NCBI GenBank assembly: GCA_030390025.1
Contig: CM059441.1
Coordinates: 41,788,001-41,852,000, forward strand
Reading direction: 5' to 3'
DNA from: Squalus acanthias
Lineage: Eukaryota
DNA: 64,000 bases
The translations under genes and the position numbers were made by a program. Below the pieces are notes generated by a model. The model was not told where the DNA came from. It did not search any database and worked only from the letters and a program-made list of their open reading frames with translations. Below are positions 1 to 48,592 of the stretch, piece by piece (within the stretch, counting starts at the first letter, position 1; every line of letters starts with the position of its first letter).

Positions 1-1164
1 TAAAGATATGTCTAAACCCCCCCCCGCCCCCCTTCTCCTCCCAAATAAGTTTGCAGTGCTGTTGCTTTGTACAGAAATCTGCGCTTTCATCTGAAAGTGA
101 GGGGAATGGGAGAAGGAAAGGACATTGAAGCATTCTAACCGTGAAGAGAATTTGTTCCCAAATCTTGTTTACACAGACCAGAGTTAAGATGTAATCTTGT
201 AAGATTTAATTCTATTCTGAGGTTAAATTCTCTGAGCTATTGGGGGAGGGAAAATAACTCCCAATACTTTTTCCTTGTAAAATGTTTATTCGTTGCACTT
301 TTTTGGGGCACCACTATTGCAGATTAGATTATTTTTGAGATGACTCTTCAGTGCGTACAAATGTGAATTAAAAAACTTAAATTCAAAACCAGCATTTGCA
401 TGTATTCTATTCACTTAAGTGGAATAGGTTGCGTGTTTGTGAAGGATTAAGCTGTTCAACCGACGCATTTTATCAGGATTATAGACCAATTGCAGTCATT
501 GTGTGATTTCTATTTCAAAAATGTACTAAGTTGCAGCAAGTTCAAGATAATAGCCTGAAGTGTACAATGTGTTCACTGGTTCATGTTACAAACAGGGAAG
601 CTGAAGTGAAGGAAAATACTTGGTGCCTCAAACTGTACTTGCCCATGTTCACACAACTGACATTCTTTCCTTCCCCCAGCATAATTGAGGAAAATTAGTG
701 TGTGGCGCTCGAGACTCGACTGCACATGGCATTTATGTATATATGTTATTTGACTACATTTAGGGGGCGTTTTGTTCGTTTTTGCTCTCCATTGCGTTCA
801 CATAACTATTTATCTGGGGAGCATTTTGTTCCTTAGTTCTTTTCTGCCAAGCATTTGCATTGATCATTTTATCCCACAATGTAAAGTTAAACTTCCAAAT
901 GTTGTGGGGTTCAAACCTCTGTGAACCAAATATACCGCGATACTCAGTCCAGTAAAGAGAAGTTGCTGCTTATTTTTTTTTAAATAAAGCTTGATAAAAA
1001 TGCCTAACCTGGATGCATTCATTGCTGAATGCTGTATACTAAACTCCGAAATAAAATAAAAAATTGGATATCGGTTGTGATAATCATTGACTATTGTGAT
1101 TTGATTAAAATGTAGTGACTTGTAATGTGGCGCCTTACTTCCTCATATTATCCCTTATTTATTT

Positions 1165-1685
1165 TGGTAGGAAGGATATCTAAGCTTTAGAGAGGGTACA
1201 ACGCAAACTCACCAGGATGTTGCCTGGTACGAGGAAATTCAATACAAAGACTCAAAGTTGATCTCTTTTGTTATAACAATGCAGATTGCAGGGAGATGTA
1301 ATAGAAGTTTTTAAATTATGAAAGGCTGGCGCAGGGTAGATAGAAGCATGCCTATTTATCTATTGTTTCCAGTAGTTGAGGGGTCAAGAACAAGGAGCCA
1401 TAGAATCAAGCTTAAATGTGTTAGATTTAAAACCGAGGGCAGAAGAAACTTCTTCACATGGAGTTGTAAAACTGCAGAATTCACTTCCAAGGTTAGTGGT
1501 TGGGGCAGAAACTATGTCAGCATTGAAGATTAGATTGGATAGGTGAATGAAGGAAAAGTGGTTAACTGATATGGAAACAGGGTGGGTAAACCTGATTAGA
1601 ACTATTTGCTCGCATGGAGGGTAAACGTCGACACGGACTGGTTGTGCTGAATAGACTGTTTCCACGCTGTAATTTCTATGTATGC
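1165..1685 (+). mobile_element. CR1 LINE 3' fragment (degenerate)
   Basis: ALERVQR...LFPVVEGSRTRSH...RRNFFT coding remnants. Tail ...ctgtaatttctatg. Confidence 0.8.
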
Positions 1686-2697
1686 CTGAAGAACCAAGTA
1701 AAATGGAGAGTTTCAGGGCTAACCTTGTGGCTGAGTTGGTAAATGGCCTGTAATACTTGACCATTTAAGAAAAACAAAGGTCAAAGACTTGATCCATGAT
1801 CTGTGCTAACTTATCTAAGCAAGGTGGTGGCATAGTACTACAAATAGTCTTGATGTCTTAATTTTGCCAGTCACAATCCAGTGATGCCCTCCCCTCCCCC
1901 GGCTCAAACTTCTGCTGGAAAAGACACGTTTAGATGTTTGGCTGGGACAAGAATAAACTGGATAGTACTCCTCACAGGTGGACAGCGAGCTGATAAAGAA
2001 TGATTTACTGAAATGAGCGACACAAAGTTGTGCTTGTGAATCAGTAGTGTCATGAATCAACAACAGGAGAACGTGTCTTGCGGAGTTTCTAATTAATGTG
2101 TAAATTCCAAATTTGGTAAATGTCAAATCTCTCAACGTGGCCCTAAATATCAAGGAGCCGACGAGTGTTGCTACCTTTTACGTTGCAAGAGTTGTCTAAG
2201 GCAGTGAATATCTTCTGCTAATGGTCTGCCATTTTCCATCTGACTGTAGCCATCCGTATGCTTTTAGAATTGCTAGCCTGTACAGATCTTTTCTGACACT
2301 GGGGAAGATCCTGACTATATTCAGTCACAATCACAACTTTGCACAAACTGCATCATTTAGATATGTTTAATGGCAAAATCACATTTGCAATTTTGGAGTA
2401 ACTGTATATGTGCAGTGTTCCTATTGCCACGTGTGCCTCACAGCATGCACAGGGTCTATTGGCACCAATGGGAGCTTGTGCAATACTGAACCATTGCAAT
2501 ATTGAGGTGCATGAGTGGCCTCATTTCTGAATATTTACATTTAGCTAGACATCTGCCTACAGAGTGAAAAATAAAAATACTTGCGTTTATGATGCTTCCG
2601 ATCCTGTCAATGTCTCAAGTATCTAACGCATTATTTTTATGATATTTAGTGATTATTGTTACATAGGCAAATGTGCCAGTGTTTTCTAGTCGGCTGA

Positions 2698-3160
2698 GTG
2701 TCAGCTTGGCCCAGGTGGTAATATTCCTGCCTTTGAGTCAGAAGGTTTATGTTCAAATCCTACTCCTGGATTTAAGCACTTAATCTAGGCTGAGATTCCA
2801 GTATGGTACTGAGGGAGTGCTGCATTGTCGGAGGTAATGCCCTTCAGTTGAAATGGTAAACCATTGCTTGTTGTAGTTTTGGTTGGCTTAAAAGATCCCA
2901 TGTCACTTTTCAAAGAAAAAAACAGGAGTACTGTTTGCATTTAGATTAGTGTTCCTCCCTCAGTCAATGCCATTTAATTAAAAAAAAAAACACCCCGATT
3001 AACTGGTTATTCATCCTGCTTTTTGTGGAATTTGGAATGTCCAAAATGGTAGCTTTGTTTACATAAGCAGTCATTTTCCCTTTAAAAGTAATTGTCTTTT
3101 GATGTACTTTGGGTTGTTTCTGAATAAATGTGATAAGACTATAGGTATCTGCAGGTCTCT
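2698..3160 (+). mobile_element. Degenerate DeuSINE copy
   Basis: gagtcagaagg...ttcaaatcc...ctgagggagtgctgcattgtcggagg shared with the 9168 and 30822 copies. Confidence 0.7.
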
Positions 3161-4759
3161 CCTAAATACGCAATTAATTTGTAATCTTTCTTGTTGACGC
3201 AATTGTTCAAATTTTAACTGAAAATGTATGGAGTTAAAGGTTAATGGTTCTCAGTATTTTCTAGGTTACACTGTAATAAAACAGACATTTTGTGGTTCTT
3301 GCTCTTGTTGGGATTTTTTTTGCTGTTGGTTTTTATGATTCTCTATGTACAGCGCTTGCATTCAGACTTTCTAACCTATAACTAGGTATTAAAATGCATA
3401 CGAGTGGCCTACTTGTAACCCAAGGCGAGCAATTACAGATGTGTTCAATTTGCAGGGTGTTTTTTTTGAGCATATGACCAATCTGCTTATGACTGGAAAT
3501 GAAGCTCGCACTTCTGACTCATGCAGGAAAGTGTGTTTTTGCAACACTTCATCCTGTATACAGTGTATGGTTTGAGCAAGAATGCTTTGAGGTCACAGTT
3601 TTGAGTGGTCTTGTACTTTCCATTACACTGCATTATTGTACAGCCACCTCGTTCTTGTAACATTAAAACCTTGAAAAAGTTTTTTTTTTTTTTTTTTAGA
3701 GAAGTACAGGGTTGTGCATTTAAAAACCAGATCCATTTAAATAGAACGTGAGAAAACTGTAAGCGTGTGTTGATTGGTTGATTTTCCTCCCCATTTCCCT
3801 TTTTCTGATCCTTTTCAGAAGAACACACATCCAGAAGTGCTACACTTTTCCAAAAAGTGGATGGGGGGAATATTCTAACATATCTGGAGTGTAGGTTTAT
3901 CTGTGCTTTGCGAGTAACTGACTTTTTGCAAATTATTAAATAAAAGTCATAAAAACCTAAAGTTCTTGTTTACAGTTTGCAAAATGCAGGTAATCTCTTA
4001 ACTTACTTTCCCTTGTGATTTCTAACTGAGTGGAAAAATGTGCCAAAGTATTGCACAAAAATGTTCGTCTAATCTGAACAACTGCCTAATGGCTGAGGCA
4101 CAGAACAATTTCATAATTTTTGAGAAGAGGCGAGAATGATAAAGACCAGCAAAAAATTGCTACTAGCGGTAATTGATTCAAATATTAGTATTGCATTAGG
4201 TACAGTACAACTCAACTGTTGGCTAAAGAAACACCCAAGTTGGCAGGCTCCCAGCTTGAACCTCTGCCTACAATTTCTAGAATTTGATATGATTGACACA
4301 AAGATTAGCCATTCACAGAGCATGCCAGGAATTGCCATTTGTAAGTCCTGTCCCTTTTAATAGAAAATTACTGAATGAAAACCCCAGGCAAACCATTTTG
4401 AGTAACTGTAATTTTATTTGTACAAAACACCAGAGCAAGGTAAAGCATGAAATCAACTTTTCTAAGGTAATTTTGAAAGTAAAAACGTGTGTAATATATA
4501 TTACCAGATGCGTTGATAGTCCAGAAAAAGCTGAACATTAATACAGTTGAGGAGAAAACTGGCAAGCGGGAAAGGACTCTGAGCAGGATCCTTATTTTTT
4601 GCAATGTATTCTAAATCGTTACATTGTTTTATTTAGTTTTTTTGAACAGTGATTTTGGAAGGACTGCAACATTAATCAAGATTGGAAGGTGATTCTCAAT
4701 GCAAGTTCTGAATTTAAATGTTTACATTTATCTTTACAAGTTATTCTAAATGTTTAGTG

Positions 4760-9900: not shown

Positions 9901-12900
9901 CACTCATAATTCAGCTCATTGTCTGCTCCATTTATTCTGTTTTATATTTTATTCTCCTCCCCCACCCCATCCCATCTTTATCAACATGATAAAGAAAGGT
10001 TTACTCTTCTGGTGTTGACTGTTGTTCAGAGCTTGAAATTGAAAGACGTGAGCCCATCTTACCCTTTTTGCTTTGTTCTGTTCAGTTCCACTAATTTTCC
10101 AGCTCTAACAGAGTTCACATCCACAATATTAACCTGTCGTTTGTCTTTACCAGTGCTGTGTATTTCTCGTGTTTTCTGGATTAAAGCCAGTTCCTGCACC
10201 AGGCTACCATTTGGTCTTTCTTTGCATATTTAAAAAAAAAATTGCTGGCTGTCCCGTATTGTTTCACCAGCTGCTGTTCTTTTGTCTGCCAGTAGAACAT
10301 TTCATACCCAATTTAAACTTGATATGTATTTGTGTGTGTTTATGTCTGTAACCATCCACAGAGAGACGTGTCTTCAAGCTAATAGTTGGGGAGGGTAATT
10401 TTGTAGATTTCTGAAAAATCCAGGTGCGCAGTGAAATGCAGTTGCTTTGTAAACTGAAGTTGCTGACTTTGTAAAATGATAGTGCTGGCATGTATTGATC
10501 CTCTAATATATCAAGACTTGATGCTGGCCTGTTAGATGAGCAGCAGCAGTCTTGAACCAGGGCTGGGACAATCTGAAGTGACTGGTCTATTTGCCCAATG
10601 TTTTTCCTGTTTGCAGCTGAGGCGTTTTATAAATCATGTGGAATCTTCTCCAATAAAAATTTGTGCAGCATTTTGGACTGCTGCTGTTTGATGTGGAGGG
10701 CAGAGGTTTGGCCTCTTACCTGCTTCATCCCACCTTGGCCGCACTTTTACAGGAAGACCAGTTGATGTAGTGAGGAGGCATACTGGAAGGGAAGTTGTCT
10801 CCAGCCTGTGCTGTCACACCTTCTAACAGCTAGCTAAGAGCAGCATTGGCGCAGGCCTGGGAGTAGGACTTGGGTGGTATGAAGAGCCTGGGAAGAAACT
10901 TGCAGTGTTGGCAATTTTGCTTCCTTTCATCGCAGAGATGTTGTTTACTTGATCTGTGAGTAGTGGTACACTGGGATTGCTAATTTCAGTAAATACCACC
11001 TCCTAACACCAGGTGTGAAGTCTGCAGTTTCTTGAATTCTACATCACACAAAATTACTTTGATGTACTGCGTGAAAACTTCCTACAGAAGTCGCTGCAAT
11101 TCCATTTTGTCTGTTGTCTCTTAAATTAGCCATTAGATAGAGCTAATGCCTTGCTATCAATCCACAACCTCACGTTGAAGCATTATTGGTGCATCAAATT
11201 TTACTTCACATGGACTCAAATCCATTGTTGAACATCAGTTGACTGCTAGTAATACTAAATAAATTTGTGCTGATCACAATGATAGATGCTAAGGAATGGA
11301 ATACTTTACCCAGTGTTATCGTCCATTCTGACACCGGTTAGATGCAGTACCTTTACCCCAGTCTCCAGAGCAGATCTTCTCCTCAGTTCCTTATATATGC
11401 AGTTTTAATTATGCATGTGGACATAGGACTTTATAACGGAGAAGGATGACAGGAAATGTGTGAAGATGTAAGATTTTTAATATATTGTAGAAGTGGTTTA
11501 GGTCCTTACTGTTGAAGTGATTTTCCTGCATTTCTGCAAATTCCCTGAAGTATTTCTGCATGGGAGTATTGATTGTCTGTGGATCAGCGAAATTGCATTT
11601 CTGGTCGTGGAATCTTGGAAATTTTACCAATGAAAGAAGCCATTTGGTCAAATGTGCTGTGCCAGTAACACAATGATGAGAAAACTCACTATTCCACATT
11701 CCGAGTGCACATTTAGTTGAGATTTCAGGTATGTGAACTATACCTGTTGCTTCAAGTTCTAATGCTGAAGCAGAAACTATCTTGGCTTTTTGGGGGAAAA
11801 AAAGTCTAATTTATTTTTAGTTCTCTTGCTAATCCTTTATTAGAAAATATTAAGTAATTTTAAGGATGAACAAATCAACCATGTCCTTGTGCACCATTCC
11901 TCGGAAGAATAGGATAGGATTCACCACTGTTGTAACTGTGTCTATTAAGAGATACATGAGCATAATTAAAAATGTTTTTGATTTCCATCATAAATTACCT
12001 TTTTTTCCAGGTGTATTGGGATTTCTTCCCGAATTCTTTTTCCATTGCTAGATTTGAACAACATTTAAGAGTACAAATTAAAAATGTACATTTCTAGAGA
12101 TATTCTTTCCAATACTTGGTATTTTTCTCTCTCATACTCTTGATATATCCTGCTCTCTCGCTGGCTGTCTCTGCATTTTTCTGTCTCCCTGTCTCCTTCC
12201 CTCTGTTCCCTTTTCTCTTTCCCTTTATTTCCTCGTTTTCACTTTTTTTCTCTCCTTCCCTTTTGCCTTGTTCATGCTCTCTCACCTCAGACGTGCACTC
12301 TCTCGCCTCGCATGCTTTTACTCTCGTTTTCCTTCCCCATCACATATATTCAAAAAAAATGCGTTTTTAGTTTAGCTTTTCTTGTTTTCTTTTGCTTGTT
12401 TCCTTGAATTTTAACAATGTTTCAAATATTTTTGCTGAATGTACTATTTTTTTCTCCCATTTTTGATTGGTAGTTAAAAACCATCATTATGATAAATGAG
12501 ACTGGATTGACTTTTTAAATTCTCTTTTCCCATGTACAAGTGTCTAATTTTCATATAGCGTCTGCCTGAGCTTACAACATTAGGAACTATAGTGTGAACC
12601 CATAATGCTGTAACTCCATGGCCAGCTCATCACAATAGCGATGTGCTGTGCCATCAGGCAATTACTAATGGTCACTAGATTTGATGTTGGACAAATGCAT
12701 TCTGGATTAAACTGTCAGGTGATGCTGTATCCCAGACTAAATGATGATCTCAATAGAAATTGACACTTTAAGTAAACTCTACATCCAGTTTGATGCTTAA
12801 AATGGGGAAATGCAAAAAGTTTGTTTTATATATCACTAGATGAAAAACCTTTACTTCAAAGGATTACAGTCCTCTAGAATCTTTATAGATGTGGCGTTAA

Positions 12901-16014: not shown

Positions 16015-16084
16015 TTTCTTCCTCCTCTCCCCCTCCTCCTCTCTCCCTCCTCCTCCCCCCTCCTCCCTCCTCCTCCTCCTCCTC
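16015..16084. repeat. Imperfect (CCT)n pyrimidine microsatellite
   Basis: cctcctctccccctcctcctctctccctcctcctccccctcctccctcctcctcctcctcctcc. Confidence 0.9.
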
Positions 16085-18589
16085 CAAGTCTAGGAGTGTT
16101 GATACCAAGTAGCCAATCACCAAATTGACGGAGATCAGCTAACTCAGCAGTCTGGGAATCAAACCAACGATCTTCTGATCTGGATAGCCTAGTGTTACTC
16201 TGGGTGGCCAGTCCAACACCGGCATCTCCGCATCATGGTGCCTTTTACCCATAGGTATTGAGATCTGAATTGTGTTTAGTGTTTACAACTGCAGTAAGGC
16301 CCCAGTTGAAGGAATAACCTATTTAACTTCTGATTAATTTGAATTGGTAATTTCAGATGTAGTCCATATCTTGGTTATAATCTTGAATTTACGATGTTCT
16401 GATTTATATACCAGTTTTCAGAATTTAGATCATAACCTTTTTTCCCCCCATTCAGGATCCATTGCAAGGCATAATGAGCATGCTGCTAACCAAGATGGTT
16501 TGAAAGCTAATACTAAGCAGCCTTTTTATTGAGGAATTACATTGGAAACGTTACAGAAAGTTTCAAACTGAACTTGAAAATTGGCTTGTGTTTCTTCAAG
16601 AAAATGCGGTAGAATAAAATTGATCAAAGCGATCTTTCCACTCAGGATCTGTGGTTATGTAAACATGTGGACATACATTGAGAATTGTGGATTAGTCTCC
16701 TGATTGTATAAATGCCTGGATCTATTTACAGCAGATGATTGTTCTGTTTAAGCACTCTGAATACAATTACATAATCAAGGGCAGGATTACAGCGAATGTC
16801 GCATGAGGCCAAAAACTGGTTAGAATCACTTTTAAATTCATTTATTCTGTAATCCAAACTTTAGCTGGAATTTTAAATCCATACAGATTGCTGTAGCTAT
16901 TCTAAATTCGTTTTAATGTATAGATACAACTGCCCTATGAGCTGTTGCATCCATTGATCTATTTTGTGCTGCACACACTGTTGAGAATCAATACTTAAGT
17001 TATGCAATAATTTTCACCTTTGCTTCAATTTAAGCTCTGTATACATCCACTTGTACGTTCACGTTGTTTTCTGGGTTCTCTCAAGTGCTTGTCCATTTCA
17101 AAACTGATGTCATTGAGTCTTAAAAATGTTCTCCCTTTCTAGCTTTAGACTATTCTTAATCCTAGAATCTTACAAAGATTTCAGCAATTCAAAAATACCT
17201 GGTCTGTCTTGAGAACTTTAAGGGCTGGGAATTTGTAAATTGGCAAAGTAGTTCTTATCAGCAATTCTCCATAACCAGGATTAAGTTTGATTCAGGAAAT
17301 GGGTGAATGCAAGGACGACTATCTAATTAGAATGTAAAAGTTCGTCATTTACTTTTTATTTTGTTTATGGACTGGAGGTAAAATTTTTTTTTTTACCTTT
17401 TTCTTCCAGTGTATAATATTTTGGTAACGGAAGGGTGTTAGTAATACTGTCATATAGCCCCTGACGCTCTGCCTACGCGTCTTTAAGGCATCCAGTCGTA
17501 AATATTTCCCAAGAAAGTCATTTAAAATGTAATTTGTAGAATATGGATATACTGTAGATAGAATATAGATCCTTGCTGTTTGTGAGTGGCATTGTGGTTA
17601 TGGAAGATATAGTTGCAATGTTTTTGTCACATGCAGTTCAGTTGCTTGTATATTGGCACTGAGAGATTAGTAGTGTGCATGTTTATATTTAGCATTGAAA
17701 GAGAGTTGCTGCTATTGCTTGACATGTTAAGTGCCTGTGTTGATTTAATTACATTATTTTAAATGGTATCCGTTTAAAACCAAAACACTCCATACTCCTA
17801 AATGCTATCCCATTGAATTATAAATGGTCATTTTGTGCTATAGTAAATTAGCCTCATGGTGACCAAAGTACTGTATAAGACAGTTGAACTGATGAGCAAA
17901 TATTTTGGAACTGATTTGAGGTCGAGAAGGCTGAGGAGGGATAGTGCACCACGGTCACAGTTTATTTTATGAAAGCAGTTGTCAAATTCTTGAGCTTGCT
18001 ATTAGAAATACACATGTTCCAGCATTACTTTTCATATGCATGTTAATACTGTGCATATTGGAAGGCTCTGCCATCTTAATTGGTCCAGATGTTTTAAAAT
18101 TGCTTCAGGTAAGTAAATAAAGGGTCTTGAACTACATGGAATACTAACATTATACAGTAATGTTAAATATATTGTACCTCTTTTAGCACTCTAGCTTCGG
18201 TGCCACATTCATGTTTCTATGATTGTAAATGCAACGGTAATATTAGAATGCTCTTTACTGCACAAACAGAAGCAAGACCTCCATGCAGTAGTGTTGAAGA
18301 TGATTTGGATTTATATAGCACCATATCACATTAAAATGTTTCACACAATTAATTAAAGGCCAACATTGTGTTCCATGGGATCATTGTACATTAATATGTC
18401 AGTACATTAATATGTCAGTACTTTACCCTCTCTTGTTTATATACTGAAATGATGCTGTCTTTTACTGGATGTTTGCTCAGGGAGCATTGCCACAAGCTGC
18501 ATTGAACAAAATCATGAATGCATGTGTTACCTCTGTGGTGCTTCCAATTTGGAGAGAGTCAGACCAGTTGAGGGTGTGGCCTTTATAAT

Positions 18590-36826: not shown

Positions 36827-37740
36827 TAGACTTGCATGTTTAAAAACTGAAAGCTGGGTATTTTTTTCCAAGCATCCCTATTCTGCACTTACAATCAATT
36901 AAAAAGGCAGCTTTCAGCTGCTGAGTTTTTAACTTGCTCCTCATTATCTTCAATATACTCTTATCTGGCTATTTCTCTCTCTCTTCCTACACCAACCACA
37001 AGTGTAAACTGCATCGGTTGCAGTTTTGGAAACGGAATTGTTACATATAGGTGTAGTCTGAACTGCTTGATGGCTAACCAGATGCATGTTTAAACAATGT
37101 GGGAAGGGATACCAGATGTAGACGTAACTGGCAAACTCTTTTCCTTTCCCCTGAGAAGCTTTGGTGTGAATGTCAGACTGAAATTCAGCCTTGGGTGTTC
37201 CAGTTGGGAGAATTTCTAGCATTGCACCTGCTGAGCTCTCGGCTTTTAAACGTCTGGTGCATCCCTGCAGTTGGTAAAAGTGGTTAACCAGTTATCTAAC
37301 TTTCATGTTTGTGAGTAGTGGTATATAGCTTAATGGAGCTTGTTCTCCTCTGAGTAGTTCTGGTCAGCCATAATGTTAATCCCAATTCACATTAATTCCA
37401 TGCTGTTCTGATTCTTGTATAGACTGCACTGTGAAGTAACTATTGTAGTGTCTGTTGCCTGCAAAATCCACCTACTCTCCAATGTAATCTTTACACAGCA
37501 AGAGAAGAAAGTCTCTTTTCAATCAATGTCACACAGCTGCAGGCGTACTGTCTGCTCCCTCCCAGCTATTCCGTAAGAAGCTTTGTACAGCCTCCTGTTT
37601 CCCTGTTTTAGGATTTTCCTCCTGTTTCCCTGTTTCAGAGTTTTCAAATTATTTGTATGTTGCTCTCGATAAGGGATGACTTAGTTGCCAGATAGTTTGT
37701 TGGCCAACTGCAGTGCCAAAAACACATTTTAATTACTTCA

Positions 37741-44834: not shown

Positions 44835-45205
44835 TTAAACCCAGTTTAGACTGATGGGATAAAAGTCTCCTCCTTCTGCTAGCTATAAGAATCCCATGTG
44901 AAATGAGTTTGGGCAGTCCTAATGCAGTTTCTAGTGGACATGGATTCACGACACACGCATATTTCTAATTTGGCATAGAATTATCAATCTCATGCAGAGT
45001 CCACAGGGTGATTGATGTGGGGAAATAGGGAGAAACAGCGCATTGGTACAGTAGGGGGCTGCTTTTCCAACTTTAAGCTGAGAAACACTGTTTGAACAGA
45101 GTAGAGGGAATGCCAGATACTGACACTGCATCCCAAAAATAGAGAATGCTCCAATCCCCAGCAGTGAAATTACCCACTTTGATGAGCACAATATTGACAA
45201 AAAAG
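44835..45205 (+). mobile_element. LF-SINE-like element
   Basis: atgtgaaatgagtttgggcagtc...cagtttctagtggaca and the 3' end cactttgatgagcacaatattgac+A-run resemble the LF-SINE consensus as I recall it. Confidence 0.55.
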
Positions 45206-45420
45206 CATCCCAAATATGTTTTCTTTTTATATAAAAAAAAATTGAATTGGCAAAGTGCTTCATTAATTTGTAAATTGATGCTCACTCTGCAATTGCAGTG
45301 TGGATCTCCAGTTATTTTATTGCAGTCATATTCTGGAGTTGAACTTTAACCTGCTTAATAACAACAGAAAACGCTGGAAAAACTCAGCAGGCCAGGCAGC
45401 ATCCGTGGAGAGAGAAAGAG

Positions 45421-45457
45421 AGTTGACGTTTCAGGTCGATGACCTTTCATCAGAACT
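45421..45457 (-). ncRNA. Minimal type I hammerhead ribozyme of the PLE
   Basis: Minus strand reads AGTT-CTGATGA-A-AGGTC-ATC-GACCT-GAAAC-GTC-AACT. Intact CUGANGA and GAAA cores, stem II AGGUC/GACCU, stem I AGUU/AACU, GUC triplet, palindromic ACGU stem III as in PLE minimal hammerheads. Confidence 0.85.
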
Positions 45458-45733
45458 GGGAAGAGCTGGAAATCAAATAGATTTAAGGCCAGGGTAAAGC
45501 TGGGAAAAGGGGGAGGGGATAAAGGAACAAAGGAGGAGATGAAGAGACATTAAGAGACATTAAGAGATATGCAAGGCTAGAGGTGGTGTTAATGTGACAG
45601 ATTAAGGCTGAATGAAGTGTGAAATCTACTGGCAGAATGAAGGACAGCTGCCAGCTTCTAGGAGGAAAAAAAAGGTGGGGGGGACAAATAAAAGGGTAGA
45701 TAAAATAAAATATAAATGTGATTGGAGCTGAGG

Positions 45734-47131
45734 TTATGATCTAAAATTGTTGAACTCGATATTGAGTCCAGAGGGCTGTAGCGTGCCTAAACGAAAGATG
45801 AGGTGCTGTTCCTCGAGCTTACGCTGAGCTTCCGTGGAACAGTGTATTAGGCCGAGGACGGTGAGGTCAGAGTGGGAGTGAAGCGGTGAATTAAAGTGAC
45901 AGGCCACCTGGAGCTCGGGGTCCCCCTTACGGACTGAACGGAGGTGTTCCGCAAAGCGGTCACCCAATCTGCGTTTGGTCTCCCCAATGTAGAGGAGTCC
46001 ACATCGTGAGCAGCGAATACAGTATACTAAGTTGCAGGAAGTACAAGTAAATCGCTGTTTCACCTGGAAGGGGTGTTTGGGGCCCTGGACAGTGGGAAGA
46101 GGGGAGGTATAAGGGCATGTGTTGCATCTCCTGCGCGTGCACGGGAAGGTGCCAGGCGAAGGGGAAGGGGTGCTGGGGGTGGTAGAGGAGTGGACTAGGG
46201 TGTCGCGGAGGGAGCGGTCCCTGCGGAATGCTGAAAGGGGAGGTGAGGGGAAGATGTGTTTGATGGTGGGATCACGCTGGAGGTGGCGGAAATGGCGGAG
46301 GATGATCCGTTGAATGTGGAGGCTGGTGGGGTGAAAGGTGAGGACAAGGGGAACCCTATCGTGGTTCCGGGAGGGAGGGGCAGGGGTGAGGGCGGATGTG
46401 CGGGAGATAGAACGGACACGGTCGAGGGCCGTGTCGACCACGGTAGAGGGGAATCCTCGGTTGAGGAAAAAGGAAGACATGTCGGAAGCACTGGTATGGA
46501 AGGTGGCATCATCAGAGCAGATGCGGCGGAGACGGAGAAACTGGGAGAATGGAATAGAGTCCTTACAGGAGGCGGGGTGGGAGGAAGTGTAGTCCAGGTA
46601 GCTGTGGGAGTCGGTGGGCTTGTAGTGAATGTTAGTCAATAACCTATCCCCAGAGATGGAGATGGAGAAGTCGAGGAAGGGAAGAGAAGAGTCGGAGATG
46701 GACCATGTGAAGGTGAGGGAAGGGTGGAAATTGGAAGCATAGTGAATGAAATGTTCTAGTTCAGGGCGAGAGCAGGAGACGGCACCGATACAGTCATCAA
46801 TGTACCGGAAAAAGAGGTGAGGGAGGGGACCCGAGTAGGACTGGAACAAAGAGTGTTCCACATATCCCACGAAAAGGCAGGCATAGCTAGGACCCATGCG
46901 GGTACCCATAGCAACACCTTTAATTTGGTGAGGGAGGGGACCCGAGTAGGACTGGAACAAAGAGTGTTCCACATATCCCACGAAAAGGCAGGCATAGCTA
47001 GGACCCATGCGGGTACCCATAGCAACACCTTTAATTTGGTGAGGGAGGGGACCCGAGTAGGACTGGAACAAAGAGTGTTCCACATATCCCACGAAAAGGC
47101 AGGCATAGCTAGGACCCATGCGGGTACCCAT
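45734..47131 (-). CDS. PLE ORF remnant: RT C-terminal half (QIKGVAMG, FRYIDD), Cys-rich linker and GIY-YIG endonuclease
   Basis: 465-aa ORF with no stops. YIDD catalytic motif, CxxxRCxTC linker, VYCIRCSRCGLLYIGETKRRLGDRFAEH...ACHF...GLN endonuclease. The RT N-terminal motifs are missing, so expression is doubtful. Confidence 0.9.
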   Translation of the reverse strand: MGTRMGPSYACLFVGYVEHSLFQSYSGPLPHQIKGVAMGTRMGPSYACLFVGYVEHSLFQSYSGPLPHQIKGVAMGTRMGPSYACLFVGYVEHSLFQSYSGPLPHLFFRYIDDCIGAVSCSRPELEHFIHYASNFHPSLTFTWSISDSSLPFLDFSISISGDRLLTNIHYKPTDSHSYLDYTSSHPASCKDSIPFSQFLRLRRICSDDATFHTSASDMSSFFLNRGFPSTVVDTALDRVRSISRTSALTPAPPSRNHDRVPLVLTFHPTSLHIQRIILRHFRHLQRDPTIKHIFPSPPLSAFRRDRSLRDTLVHSSTTPSTPSPSPGTFPCTRRRCNTCPYTSPLPTVQGPKHPFQVKQRFTCTSCNLVYCIRCSRCGLLYIGETKRRLGDRFAEHLRSVRKGDPELQVACHFNSPLHSHSDLTVLGLIHCSTEAQRKLEEQHLIFRLGTLQPSGLNIEFNNFRS

Positions 47132-47143
47132 AGCAACACCTTT
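46816..47143 (-). repeat. Perfect tandem repeat, ~3 x 111 bp (37 codons), at the PLE 5' end
   Basis: Units start at 46816, 46927 and 47038 on + (ggtgagggaggggacccgagtagg...). The peptide MGTRMGPSYACLFVGYVEHSLFQSYSGPLPH appears three times. Confidence 0.97.
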
Positions 47144-47348
47144 TAACCTGCTTAGTTGCTTGGACTGTGAAGTGAAAAATCAGCACATGTGTTGTGCTGA
47201 TAATCTAATACCATTTACCATATGAACTGAATCTGATCAGCCCAGTGTGTAAATTGAGATTACATTTCAGGTCTTCCTTGTGTGGCCATAATGTGACCCC
47301 TATAGGAGCTGCAGTATCAATGGGGTGAAGGAGACCTCTTTTATTATT

Positions 47349-47366
47349 TTATATATATATATATAT
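47349..47366. repeat. (TA)n microsatellite
   Basis: Direct read. Confidence 0.85.
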
Positions 47367-48592
47367 CTCCTTTTAATTTCAGCATATCAGCTATTTTGTA
47401 TGAACGTATACAGATAAAGACTTGGATTTTACTTGGCGTTCTATTAATGTAATAATGCTTTATAGTTCTGAGGTATATCCAATGTATCCGCTAAATTTCA
47501 AATTGAAATGGAAGAGAAGGAAAGTAATGAAGGGAGTGAGGAACAGTAAGCAGTAAGAGGAACAAATATTGCATGAGAGAAATGGGTGCAATGGAATATA
47601 CACTGGAAGGAATTGTGACTCCTAGCTATGTGCACTCCGTTCAAAATATAAATGGGCAAGGATCCCTCGGGCTTTAAAAAAAAAATCTTGTAGGTGATGA
47701 TGTAGGTTTAAGTGAGGTTGATGTAACTGAGGAAATTATAACCAATTCTGTCATGGCTAAGGTGTAATAGTATAAAGGTTGTATGTGTAACAGAGGGCAT
47801 AGCTGATTGTTTAATTAGCATGATTTCCTTTCCAGATTAGAAACTAGCATTCTTATTCTATAGCCCATGAAGTAGGGTGGGAGCCCGTTTATGAACCTGT
47901 GCATGAAATAATTTGGCCTTCAATTCAATCAGATTTGATGATGCTATTCCTTTTGTTGAGCCTTACTATGTCTGGAATTCTGTTAGCTTTGATAACTTCT
48001 ATAGTTTATGGTTTTAAAATTGCGTATCATGATTTCGTAGCCAAAAGCAAATATGGAAAAAAAATTAGCAGTAGTGGATATAAACTGCAAACTCGTGAAC
48101 AAAAATGAGGAGAGACAAATCATTCTTGCTTTTTACTCTTGTGGTTTGCCATTGCCTGAACCCATTGAATTTATAAAAGCCTTGTGAAAAGAAGATTGAG
48201 AACCTTGTGCAAGTTTTTCTTCTGCAGTACTCAAGGTTTCGTGTGTCTTCACATAAAGGCATCAGGAAGAATTTGAAGTATATCCAGCTTTATTTTGAAT
48301 TACTTATGCCAAATAACAATAGTGAAAAGGTGAAGTCTTAAGAGCTGTATTGGGAGAATTGATTTTGTGCAATATTCCTTTTAATCTTTGAAGAAAAGAC
48401 TATATGTGAGGTACCCACGCCTGTTCTTTAGATATATTGTAATTGTTACATTGATTATAGATATAATCTTTGTGCTTTTTTAACTGAACCAATCTACTTG
48501 TATTTTATTAGATTTTTAAAAATCCCAAGCAAGTGTGGCACATTTTATTCTATTGTTATACCTATAATTTGATAATTGAATTCTCTCTTTAG

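What the first reader, a model, noticed from the sequence alone, without database searches (positions are those of the whole stretch)
46816..47154. Perfect in-frame 111-bp triplication exactly at the 5' truncation point of a Penelope-like element
Seen: three identical units 111 bp apart. The internal units restart at caaattaaaggtgttgctatg (- strand), within a few nt of where the whole insertion is truncated (ttaaaaggtgttgctatg, sharing TTAAA with the TSD). The frame is preserved, so the RT motif-B region is triplicated ahead of YIDD in a 465-aa ORF. Inference: the RT stalled repeatedly at the same template position and re-primed 111 nt back. That would be a fossil of iterative template jumping in a clade related to telomerase RT. 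Post-insertion tandem duplication or an assembly artefact are alternatives.
Basis: partly seen in the sequence, partly recalled or inferred. Interest (0 to 1): 0.7.

Follow-up and report, generated by a model that had tools for sequence, protein, structure and literature searches.

The report
Penelope retroelement stutters out minisatellites
A very young jumping gene ends, at its cut-off front end, in three copies of a 111-base piece of itself, and twelve other copies in this genome end the same way with up to about 59 repeats, likely because its copying enzyme loops over a broken piece of its own RNA while inserting, which would create a minisatellite in one step.

Summary
The triplication is in the assembly: two full 111-bp units and a 5'-most unit of 104-106 bp, at the 5' end of a 1.8-kb Penelope-like (PLE) insertion with a 13-bp target duplication. 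Its junction occurs nowhere else in the genome. The empty site is seen in read contigs of two samples; reads did not show the filled allele. It is not a one-off. Probing 21 sites of the element gave 14 arrays in 13 insertions (period 35-115 bp, 2-58 identical junctions). All 14 sit at the 5' end of an arm, none keeps sequence upstream of its unit, and junction microhomology is enriched (p=0.01). About 1-3% of roughly 1,000 young copies carry one. The seed is best read as a back-jump of the reverse transcriptase on broken RNA. The later rounds are either the enzyme rolling on that RNA piece (0.42) or DNA-level slippage during 5' joining (0.33). Frame preservation is chance, there is no blocking hairpin, and ordinary truncations do not cluster here. 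The scan earlier noted rolling-circle retrozymes and junction minisatellites on other DNA, but not this class in my look-ups.

The parts
45357..47143 (-). 5'-truncated young Penelope-like insertion (family positions 1633-3198 plus two extra units)
   Evidence: Maps to a natural 3199-bp monomer cut from locus L048; body 1567 of 1573 columns identical
47142..47154 (-). Upstream copy of the 13-bp target-site duplication; its last 2 bases overlap the element start
   Evidence: Sequence; empty-site contigs join 45344 to 47142
45345..45357 (-). Downstream copy of the target-site duplication
   Evidence: Sequence
47038..47143 (-). 5'-most, partial unit (104-106 of 111 bp), inferred to be the last round copied
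46927..47037 (-). Middle full unit, identical to the body unit
46816..46926 (-). Body unit (family positions 1628-1738), continuous with the rest of the element; encodes the RT stretch just before the YIDD motif
45734..47131 (-). 465-aa open frame; lacks the N-terminal ~545 aa of the 939-aa family frame, including the first RT motifs, so not expected to be an active RT
45827..46033 (-). GIY-YIG endonuclease domain
   Evidence: Pfam PF01541, E 2.4e-4, 21.8 bits against a cut-off of 22.6
45421..45460 (-). Minimal hammerhead-like motif in the terminal repeat
   Evidence: Read by eye against the recalled core consensus; Rfam gave no match; activity not tested

Best explanation
The triplication is one of a family-wide class of perfect arrays at the 5' ends of young Penelope-like insertions, likely written during insertion by the element's reverse transcriptase looping over a broken piece of its own RNA. 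Shown: position at the 5' end, private junctions, short microhomology, nothing kept upstream of the unit. Inferred steps: (1) target-primed reverse transcription runs from the 3' end to a break in the RNA (here 1626-1628). (2) The cDNA end re-pairs 35-115 bases back through 0-4 bases of microhomology. (3) The RNA piece then behaves as a ring, its ends held in register by the enzyme or by the previous round's cDNA, so the same junction is crossed again and again with strand displacement. (4) The last round stops part-way and is joined to the target end, here through a short A/T match, leaving a 13-bp duplication. Some arrays likely change copy number later at the DNA level.
For: 14 of 14 arrays with 2 or more junctions lie at the 5' end of an arm. 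The chance of this under random placement was 2e-17 for the first 11. None keeps sequence upstream of its unit, whereas 4 duplications that do continue upstream have only 2 units (L092, L094, L192, L196). Microhomology averages 1.7 against 0.85 expected (p 0.01, n=14). In L044 both arms of a twin-primed insertion end in their own arrays (4 and 9 junctions), joined partial unit to partial unit; this needs at least one RNA-templated back-jump and is simplest if all rounds are first-strand. Shorter units repeat more often (Spearman -0.56, p 0.04), as for length-limited rolling. L043 has 22 junctions and 0 private changes in 1102 body bases. Units carry about as many private substitutions as their bodies predict (6 seen, about 7.6 expected; L062 left out), and 7 of 7 such substitutions are confined to one unit. 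Deletions of 4 or more bases are enriched in units (3 in 7,140 against 1 in 135,460 bases). Target-derived repeats at 5' junctions, which must be DNA-templated, stay at 1-2 extra copies. One odd junction occurs exactly twice in the genome, each time as a single unit inside a different terminal-repeat array.
Against: L189 repeats a two-piece unit (531-591 plus 701-718) 8 times although the body has no such skip and the RNA has no strong hairpin there. In L193 four identical units share a base absent from the body and from the other loci of 152 compared. L061 alternates 62/68/62/68/68 like a duplicated dimer. All three are easier to explain if a first-round DNA product was the template. DNA-templated stutters do occur at this family's 5' junctions. 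No RNA or raw-read evidence was obtained. The junction was not seen in read contigs (tables cut). The ring is inferred, not observed.
Confidence: 0.42

Rival explanations
1. Two stages in one insertion event. The RT makes one back-jump. Then, during second-strand fill-in or 5' joining, the growing DNA strand (made by the RT or a host polymerase such as theta) stalls in the body unit, slips back one unit by full-length homology and repeats.
For: Explains identical junctions despite 0-4 bases of microhomology, and explains features shared by all units but absent from the body (L189, L193) and the 62/68 pattern (L061). Target-templated reiterations and an element/target alternation are seen at 5' junctions (L153, L133, L017, L166). 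Here the 5'-most piece is 104 bases, ample for a slip.
Against: L044 would need loops on both strands to be kept. L065 needs 57 successive slips seeded by an 8-10-base piece. Target-derived seeds are never amplified beyond 1-2 extra copies. It does not predict that arrays never keep upstream sequence.
Confidence: 0.33
2. Only the first duplication arises at insertion; arrays then grow over generations by slippage or unequal exchange, as proposed for human TE-derived minisatellites.
For: L193 (older, 0.8% private body changes) has four identical units sharing a derived base. L061 looks like a dimer duplication. L065 has 0 variants in 1,995 unit bases where about 1.8 were expected. PMC3389668 proposes this route.
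Against: Older body-internal duplications stay at 2 units. The youngest hosts carry long arrays (L043, L065). Single-unit substitutions never spread (7 of 7). This insertion is still polymorphic. PMC3389668 reports no array above 3 units in the newest Alu subfamilies.
Confidence: 0.14
3. The array was copied from an unsampled parent copy, or from a pre-existing small circular RNA, that already had the junction.
For: Terminal-repeat arrays L071 and L118 have the same junction in both arms, so templates with a ready-made junction exist for that class. PLE-linked retrozymes form RNA circles (PMC7229834).
Against: The junction is private to this locus. Each internal array seen has its own junction. 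The unit has no ribozyme. Microhomology enrichment is not expected from RNA ligation.
Confidence: 0.06
4. Assembly or consensus artefact: the true allele has fewer units.
For: No read evidence of the filled allele or the junction was shown.
Against: Clean target duplication, matching empty allele, 13 like loci on many contigs, single-unit variants inside sister arrays, and strict 5'-end position.
Confidence: 0.04

Closest known systems
Endonuclease-bearing Penelope-like elements (PAc, PMC11167929, first two of four parts read; Neptune/Poseidon architecture, PMC8557442, passages read)
   Same: RT plus C-terminal GIY-YIG in one frame, partial tandems, inverted 5' arms, two 3' ends about 30-37 bases apart (the tail), 5' truncation, target duplications
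   Different: The passages read describe whole-element or terminal-repeat tandems, not short perfect arrays of ORF-internal pieces at the 5' end
Animal non-LTR retrozymes (PMC7229834, passages; bioRxiv 10.64898/2026.07.22.740005, part 1 and passages)
   Same: Head-to-tail arrays linked to PLEs, with rolling-circle copying proposed; this family also makes ribozyme-bearing 230-300-bp arrays (L067-L074)
   Different: The internal arrays have no ribozyme, have private junctions, are not a propagating family, and stay attached to the element's body
DRT2 concatemer synthesis and telomerase repeat addition (PMC12039810, passages)
   Same: Repeated copying of one RNA segment, realigned by a few shared bases; 111 bases here against 120 in DRT2
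   Different: There the template is programmed and fixed. Here the boundaries differ between events, only weakly preferred, and the product looks accidental. RT-made repeats are inferred here, not shown.
TE-derived minisatellites of the human genome (Ahmed and Liang 2012, PMC3389668, passages)
   Same: Repeats made from TE pieces, more common in young elements, some at 5' ends; initiation at retrotransposition suggested
   Different: There most have 2 units and are said to grow slowly. Here the youngest copies have a median of 5.5 junctions and up to 58.
R2/R1 5'-junction duplications (PMC3774820 and PMC2718515, passages)
   Same: Direct duplications at 5' junctions tied to the RNA's 5' end; one listed R2 junction repeats a short stretch three times
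   Different: Those duplicate short target (28S) sequence; here element-internal units of 35-115 bp are repeated many times

Membership tests
EN+ Penelope-like element | One ORF with RT followed by C-terminal GIY-YIG | tested here: met
   939-aa frame of the L048 monomer: RVT_1 E 2.3e-5 and GIY-YIG E 3.8e-4, both under Pfam's cut-offs
EN+ Penelope-like element | Partial tandems and inverted 5' arms | tested here: met
   3199-bp period in L048-L050 and L057; many inverted arms
EN+ Penelope-like element | Two 3' ends about 30-40 bases apart (tail) | tested here: met
   Copies end at 3196-3199 or at 27-37 of the next unit
EN+ Penelope-like element | Minimal hammerhead in the terminal repeat | tested here: inconclusive
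   Core motif seen by eye against the recalled consensus; Rfam no match
EN+ Penelope-like element | RT groups with PLE clades (Neptune or Poseidon) in a tree | not tested
   No tree built; the cysteine-rich linker suggests Neptune, from recall only
Non-LTR retrozyme | Hammerhead in every repeat unit | tested here: not met
   The unit is RT-coding sequence at family positions 1628-1738; the motif lies 1.4 kb away
Non-LTR retrozyme | Same unit at many loci | tested here: not met
   Junction found 2 times, both here
Telomerase/DRT2-type repeat addition | RT itself adds repeats processively from one RNA template | not testable with these tools
   Only genomic footprints; L044 favours it, L189 and L193 do not
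Telomerase/DRT2-type repeat addition | Fixed, programmed template boundaries | tested here: not met
   14 different junctions; restart clustering p 0.026 pooled, 0.32 in the independent set
Telomerase/DRT2-type repeat addition | Short alignment match at the realignment point | tested here: met
   Mean 1.7 against 0.85 bases, p 0.01; 2 of 14 have none

The most novel reading that the evidence does not exclude
The reverse transcriptase of Penelope-like elements, the closest mobile relative of telomerase, has latent repeat-addition processivity. On any broken piece of its RNA it realigns by a few bases and adds up to about 60 perfect repeats to a chromosome end during insertion. This would create minisatellites, and ribozyme-bearing retrozyme seeds, in a single step.
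Probability: 0.38. Interest if true: 0.85.

Novelty: new variant of a known kind. Interest (0 to 1): 0.62.

Why it matters
How minisatellites start is open: PMC3389668 says known models explain 6% of human TE-derived repeats. Here a still-polymorphic element gives dated examples of long perfect arrays tied to the 5' end of insertion. If the RT makes them, repeat addition is a property shared with telomerase's nearest mobile relatives, and the published in vitro PLE system (PMC11167929) can test it directly. The same process acting on the terminal repeat would explain how retrozymes are born. If a host polymerase makes them, it is still a one-event route to minisatellites.

Tried and rejected
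Rfam on 45200-47400 gave no match. A PDB sequence search with the 939-aa frame gave none. Read contigs of 6 runs were laid (X1, X3, X5, X6; X1, X5, X19, X20); neither the filled 5' junction nor the unit junction was listed, but the tables were cut, so this is no evidence of absence. The probe at 1270 found no array. Hairpin stall: rejected, no consistent structure upstream of the restart points or in the units (this unit is in the top 2% for stability, others range up to unstructured). Truncation hotspot: rejected. Selection for frame: rejected. Spliceosomal lariat: restart points lack a shared GT start and unit ends lack a shared A (read by eye). Ligated RNA circle as the seed: disfavoured by microhomology enrichment. 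Most single-row hits of the multiplexed probes were inversions, deletions or nested insertions joining two different probe sites, not duplications. Three further probe sites (267, 1141, 2123) were not searched, so those stretches are unsampled. Ten paper searches listed no paper whose title or abstract start describes such arrays. The library lacks most subscription journals and Repbase entries, and no supplements were read (those of the bioRxiv preprint are closed), so a prior description may exist.

Full report
OBSERVATION. TRF finds one 111-bp array at 46816-47143 with 100% matches. On the minus strand it is the 5' end of an insertion running to 45357 between two copies of a 13-bp target duplication. 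Two units are full; the 5'-most is 104-106 bases. The frame stays open for 465 aa from the first Met and ends in a GIY-YIG domain. It lacks the first ~545 aa of the family's 939-aa frame, so it is not expected to be an active RT.

THE FAMILY. A 327-base query gave 933 candidates; all 40 scored were 100% identical, and all 30 fetched have a single unit. A 26-base word specific to young copies occurs 1,056 times. I used one natural monomer (L048, 3199 bp) as the ruler; the window's body matches it at 1567 of 1573 columns. Copies show partial tandems, inverted arms, two 3' ends about 30-37 bases apart and, in 74 of 91, a target duplication. This is the architecture described for endonuclease-bearing PLEs (PMC11167929, parts 1-2 of 4 read; PMC8557442, passages). 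Contigs from two samples join 45344 to 47142, the empty site, so the insertion is polymorphic. The filled allele was not shown in read contigs.

NOT A ONE-OFF. The unit junction occurs only here (2 matches). I searched for any short word of the element repeated within 250-400 bases, at 21 sites (two lists were cut at 100 of 140 and 100 of 145 rows). I fetched 73 probe-derived loci chosen by eye as element-related (one, L110, proved unrelated); unrelated satellites and several mixed-probe rows were not fetched. With one array from the census this gave 14 ORF-internal arrays of 2 or more junctions in 13 insertions. As period x junctions: window 111x2, L043 84x22, L044 47x9 and 115x4, L059 47x8, L060 42x9, L061 68x6, L062 81x5, L063 55x4, L064 60x2, L065 35x58, L189 75x8, L190 109x2, L193 54x4. 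Two older ones (L080, L086) and five single 5'-terminal back-jumps (L081, L093, L109, L191, L197) were seen but left out of the statistics. In a census of 92 loci on two chromosomes, picked without regard to arrays, 1 has an array (L065; 95% interval 0.03-6%). A rough probe-based estimate is about 32 arrays genome-wide.

ANATOMY. All 14 arrays lie at the 5' end of an arm, and none keeps sequence upstream of its unit. Random placement was excluded at 2e-17 for the first 11. Four duplications that do continue upstream have only 2 units (L092, L094, L192, L196). Junction microhomology is 0-4 bases, mean 1.7 against 0.85 (p 0.01). The last round ends anywhere in the unit, with some excess near the restart point (7 of 14 at 80% or more, p 0.01; KS p 0.07; very short partial units are invisible and inflate this). 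Restart points recur at 1622-1626 (3 arrays), 649/654, 1388/1389 and 561. The test gave p 0.003 in the discovery set, 0.32 in the independent set and 0.026 pooled. Ordinary 5' ends (108) do not cluster and none lies at 1610-1645. No hairpin marks the restart points. Periods divisible by 3 are not in excess (7 of 14).

WHEN. L043 has 22 junctions and no private change in 1102 body bases. Units carry 6 private substitutions where body rates predict about 7.6 (L062 left out; the expectation was summed by hand), and all 7 single-unit substitutions, L062 included, stay in one unit. So most arrays are as old as their insertions. L193 and L061 point to some later change.

WHICH STRAND. In L044 each arm starts at the element's 3' end and ends in its own array, and the arms meet partial unit to partial unit. 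Units contain sequence beyond that joint on both sides, so second-strand synthesis alone cannot make both; at least one back-jump was templated by RNA (inference). All-first-strand synthesis also fits the inverse relation of period and count, the absence of upstream sequence, and the failure of target-derived seeds to amplify (1-2 extra copies in L017, L026, L133, L153, L169, L205, L048). It also fits an odd junction that occurs exactly twice genome-wide, each time as one unit inside a different terminal-repeat array. Against it: L189 repeats a two-piece unit 8 times though its body has no such skip; L193's four units share a base found in no other of 152 loci; L061 alternates 62 and 68. These fit amplification of a first-round DNA product better. 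DNA-templated stutters plainly occur at these junctions. The two models are close: I give RT rolling on an RNA piece 0.42, DNA slippage in the same event 0.33 and later growth 0.14. The shared claim, seeding by an RT back-jump during insertion, I put near 0.85.

COMPARISON. It works like DRT2 or telomerase repeat addition (PMC12039810, passages) but has no programmed template, so it is not filed there. It is not a retrozyme (no ribozyme in the unit, private junction; PMC7229834, passages; bioRxiv 10.64898/2026.07.22.740005, part 1 and passages), though the family also makes ribozyme-bearing arrays. Human TE-derived minisatellites are mostly 2 units, with none above 3 in the newest Alus (PMC3389668, passages). 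R2 shows short 5'-junction duplications (PMC3774820 and PMC2718515, passages). L1 template switches are described in PMC11702581 (passages), without such arrays in what I saw. Ten searches listed no description of this class; the library is incomplete and no supplements were read. Earlier scan notes (two searches showed nothing) were used as leads only. The shark-like identity of the genome comes from those notes and from recall, and was not tested.

VERDICT. A real assembly feature and the entry point to a family-wide, insertion-linked route to perfect minisatellites. New variant of a known kind; interest 0.62. The enzyme behind the later rounds is open and directly testable.

Noticed in passing
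L067-L074, L111-L118: Arrays and short tandems of about 210-300 bp spanning the ribozyme-bearing terminal repeat (up to 10 junctions), mostly with private junctions: retrozyme-like seeds. L071 and L118 carry the same junction in both arms.
   Followed up: partly
L068 and L069: One odd junction (123 to 3067) occurs exactly twice in the genome, each time as a single unit in the middle of a different array.
   Followed up: yes
L153, L133, L017, L026, L169, L205, L048, L166 (5' junctions): Target-derived repeats of about 7-12 bases (1-2 extra copies), one 248-base flank duplication, and one junction alternating element and target sequence.
   Followed up: partly
window 46549 to 46502, run X5 (table 5c): A go-back joint at depth 294 against about 15 for the flank, in the second sample: possibly an array of about 58 bp near family positions 2005-2065, or a junction shared by older copies.
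   Followed up: no
L043 with L066: The 84-bp array sits on a body of 1.5 monomers (about 4.8 kb), so reiteration began after the enzyme had passed the same site's downstream copy without stopping.
   Followed up: partly
L059, L097, L098: Young copies inserted inside older copies of the same family.
   Followed up: no
L110 (G000:C4 near 107.205 Mb): A near-perfect 25-bp array of over 30 units with no match to this element.
   Followed up: no
window 46700-47154, runs X19, X20, X6: Three other organisms hold the element part of the stretch near-identically (share 0.25 of words; X6, X19 and X20 laid), so the family is young in them too.
   Followed up: partly
window 10445-10487, 12180-12224, 16020-16085, 18386-18425, 37591-37645: Other short tandem repeats listed by TRF; not examined.
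   Followed up: no
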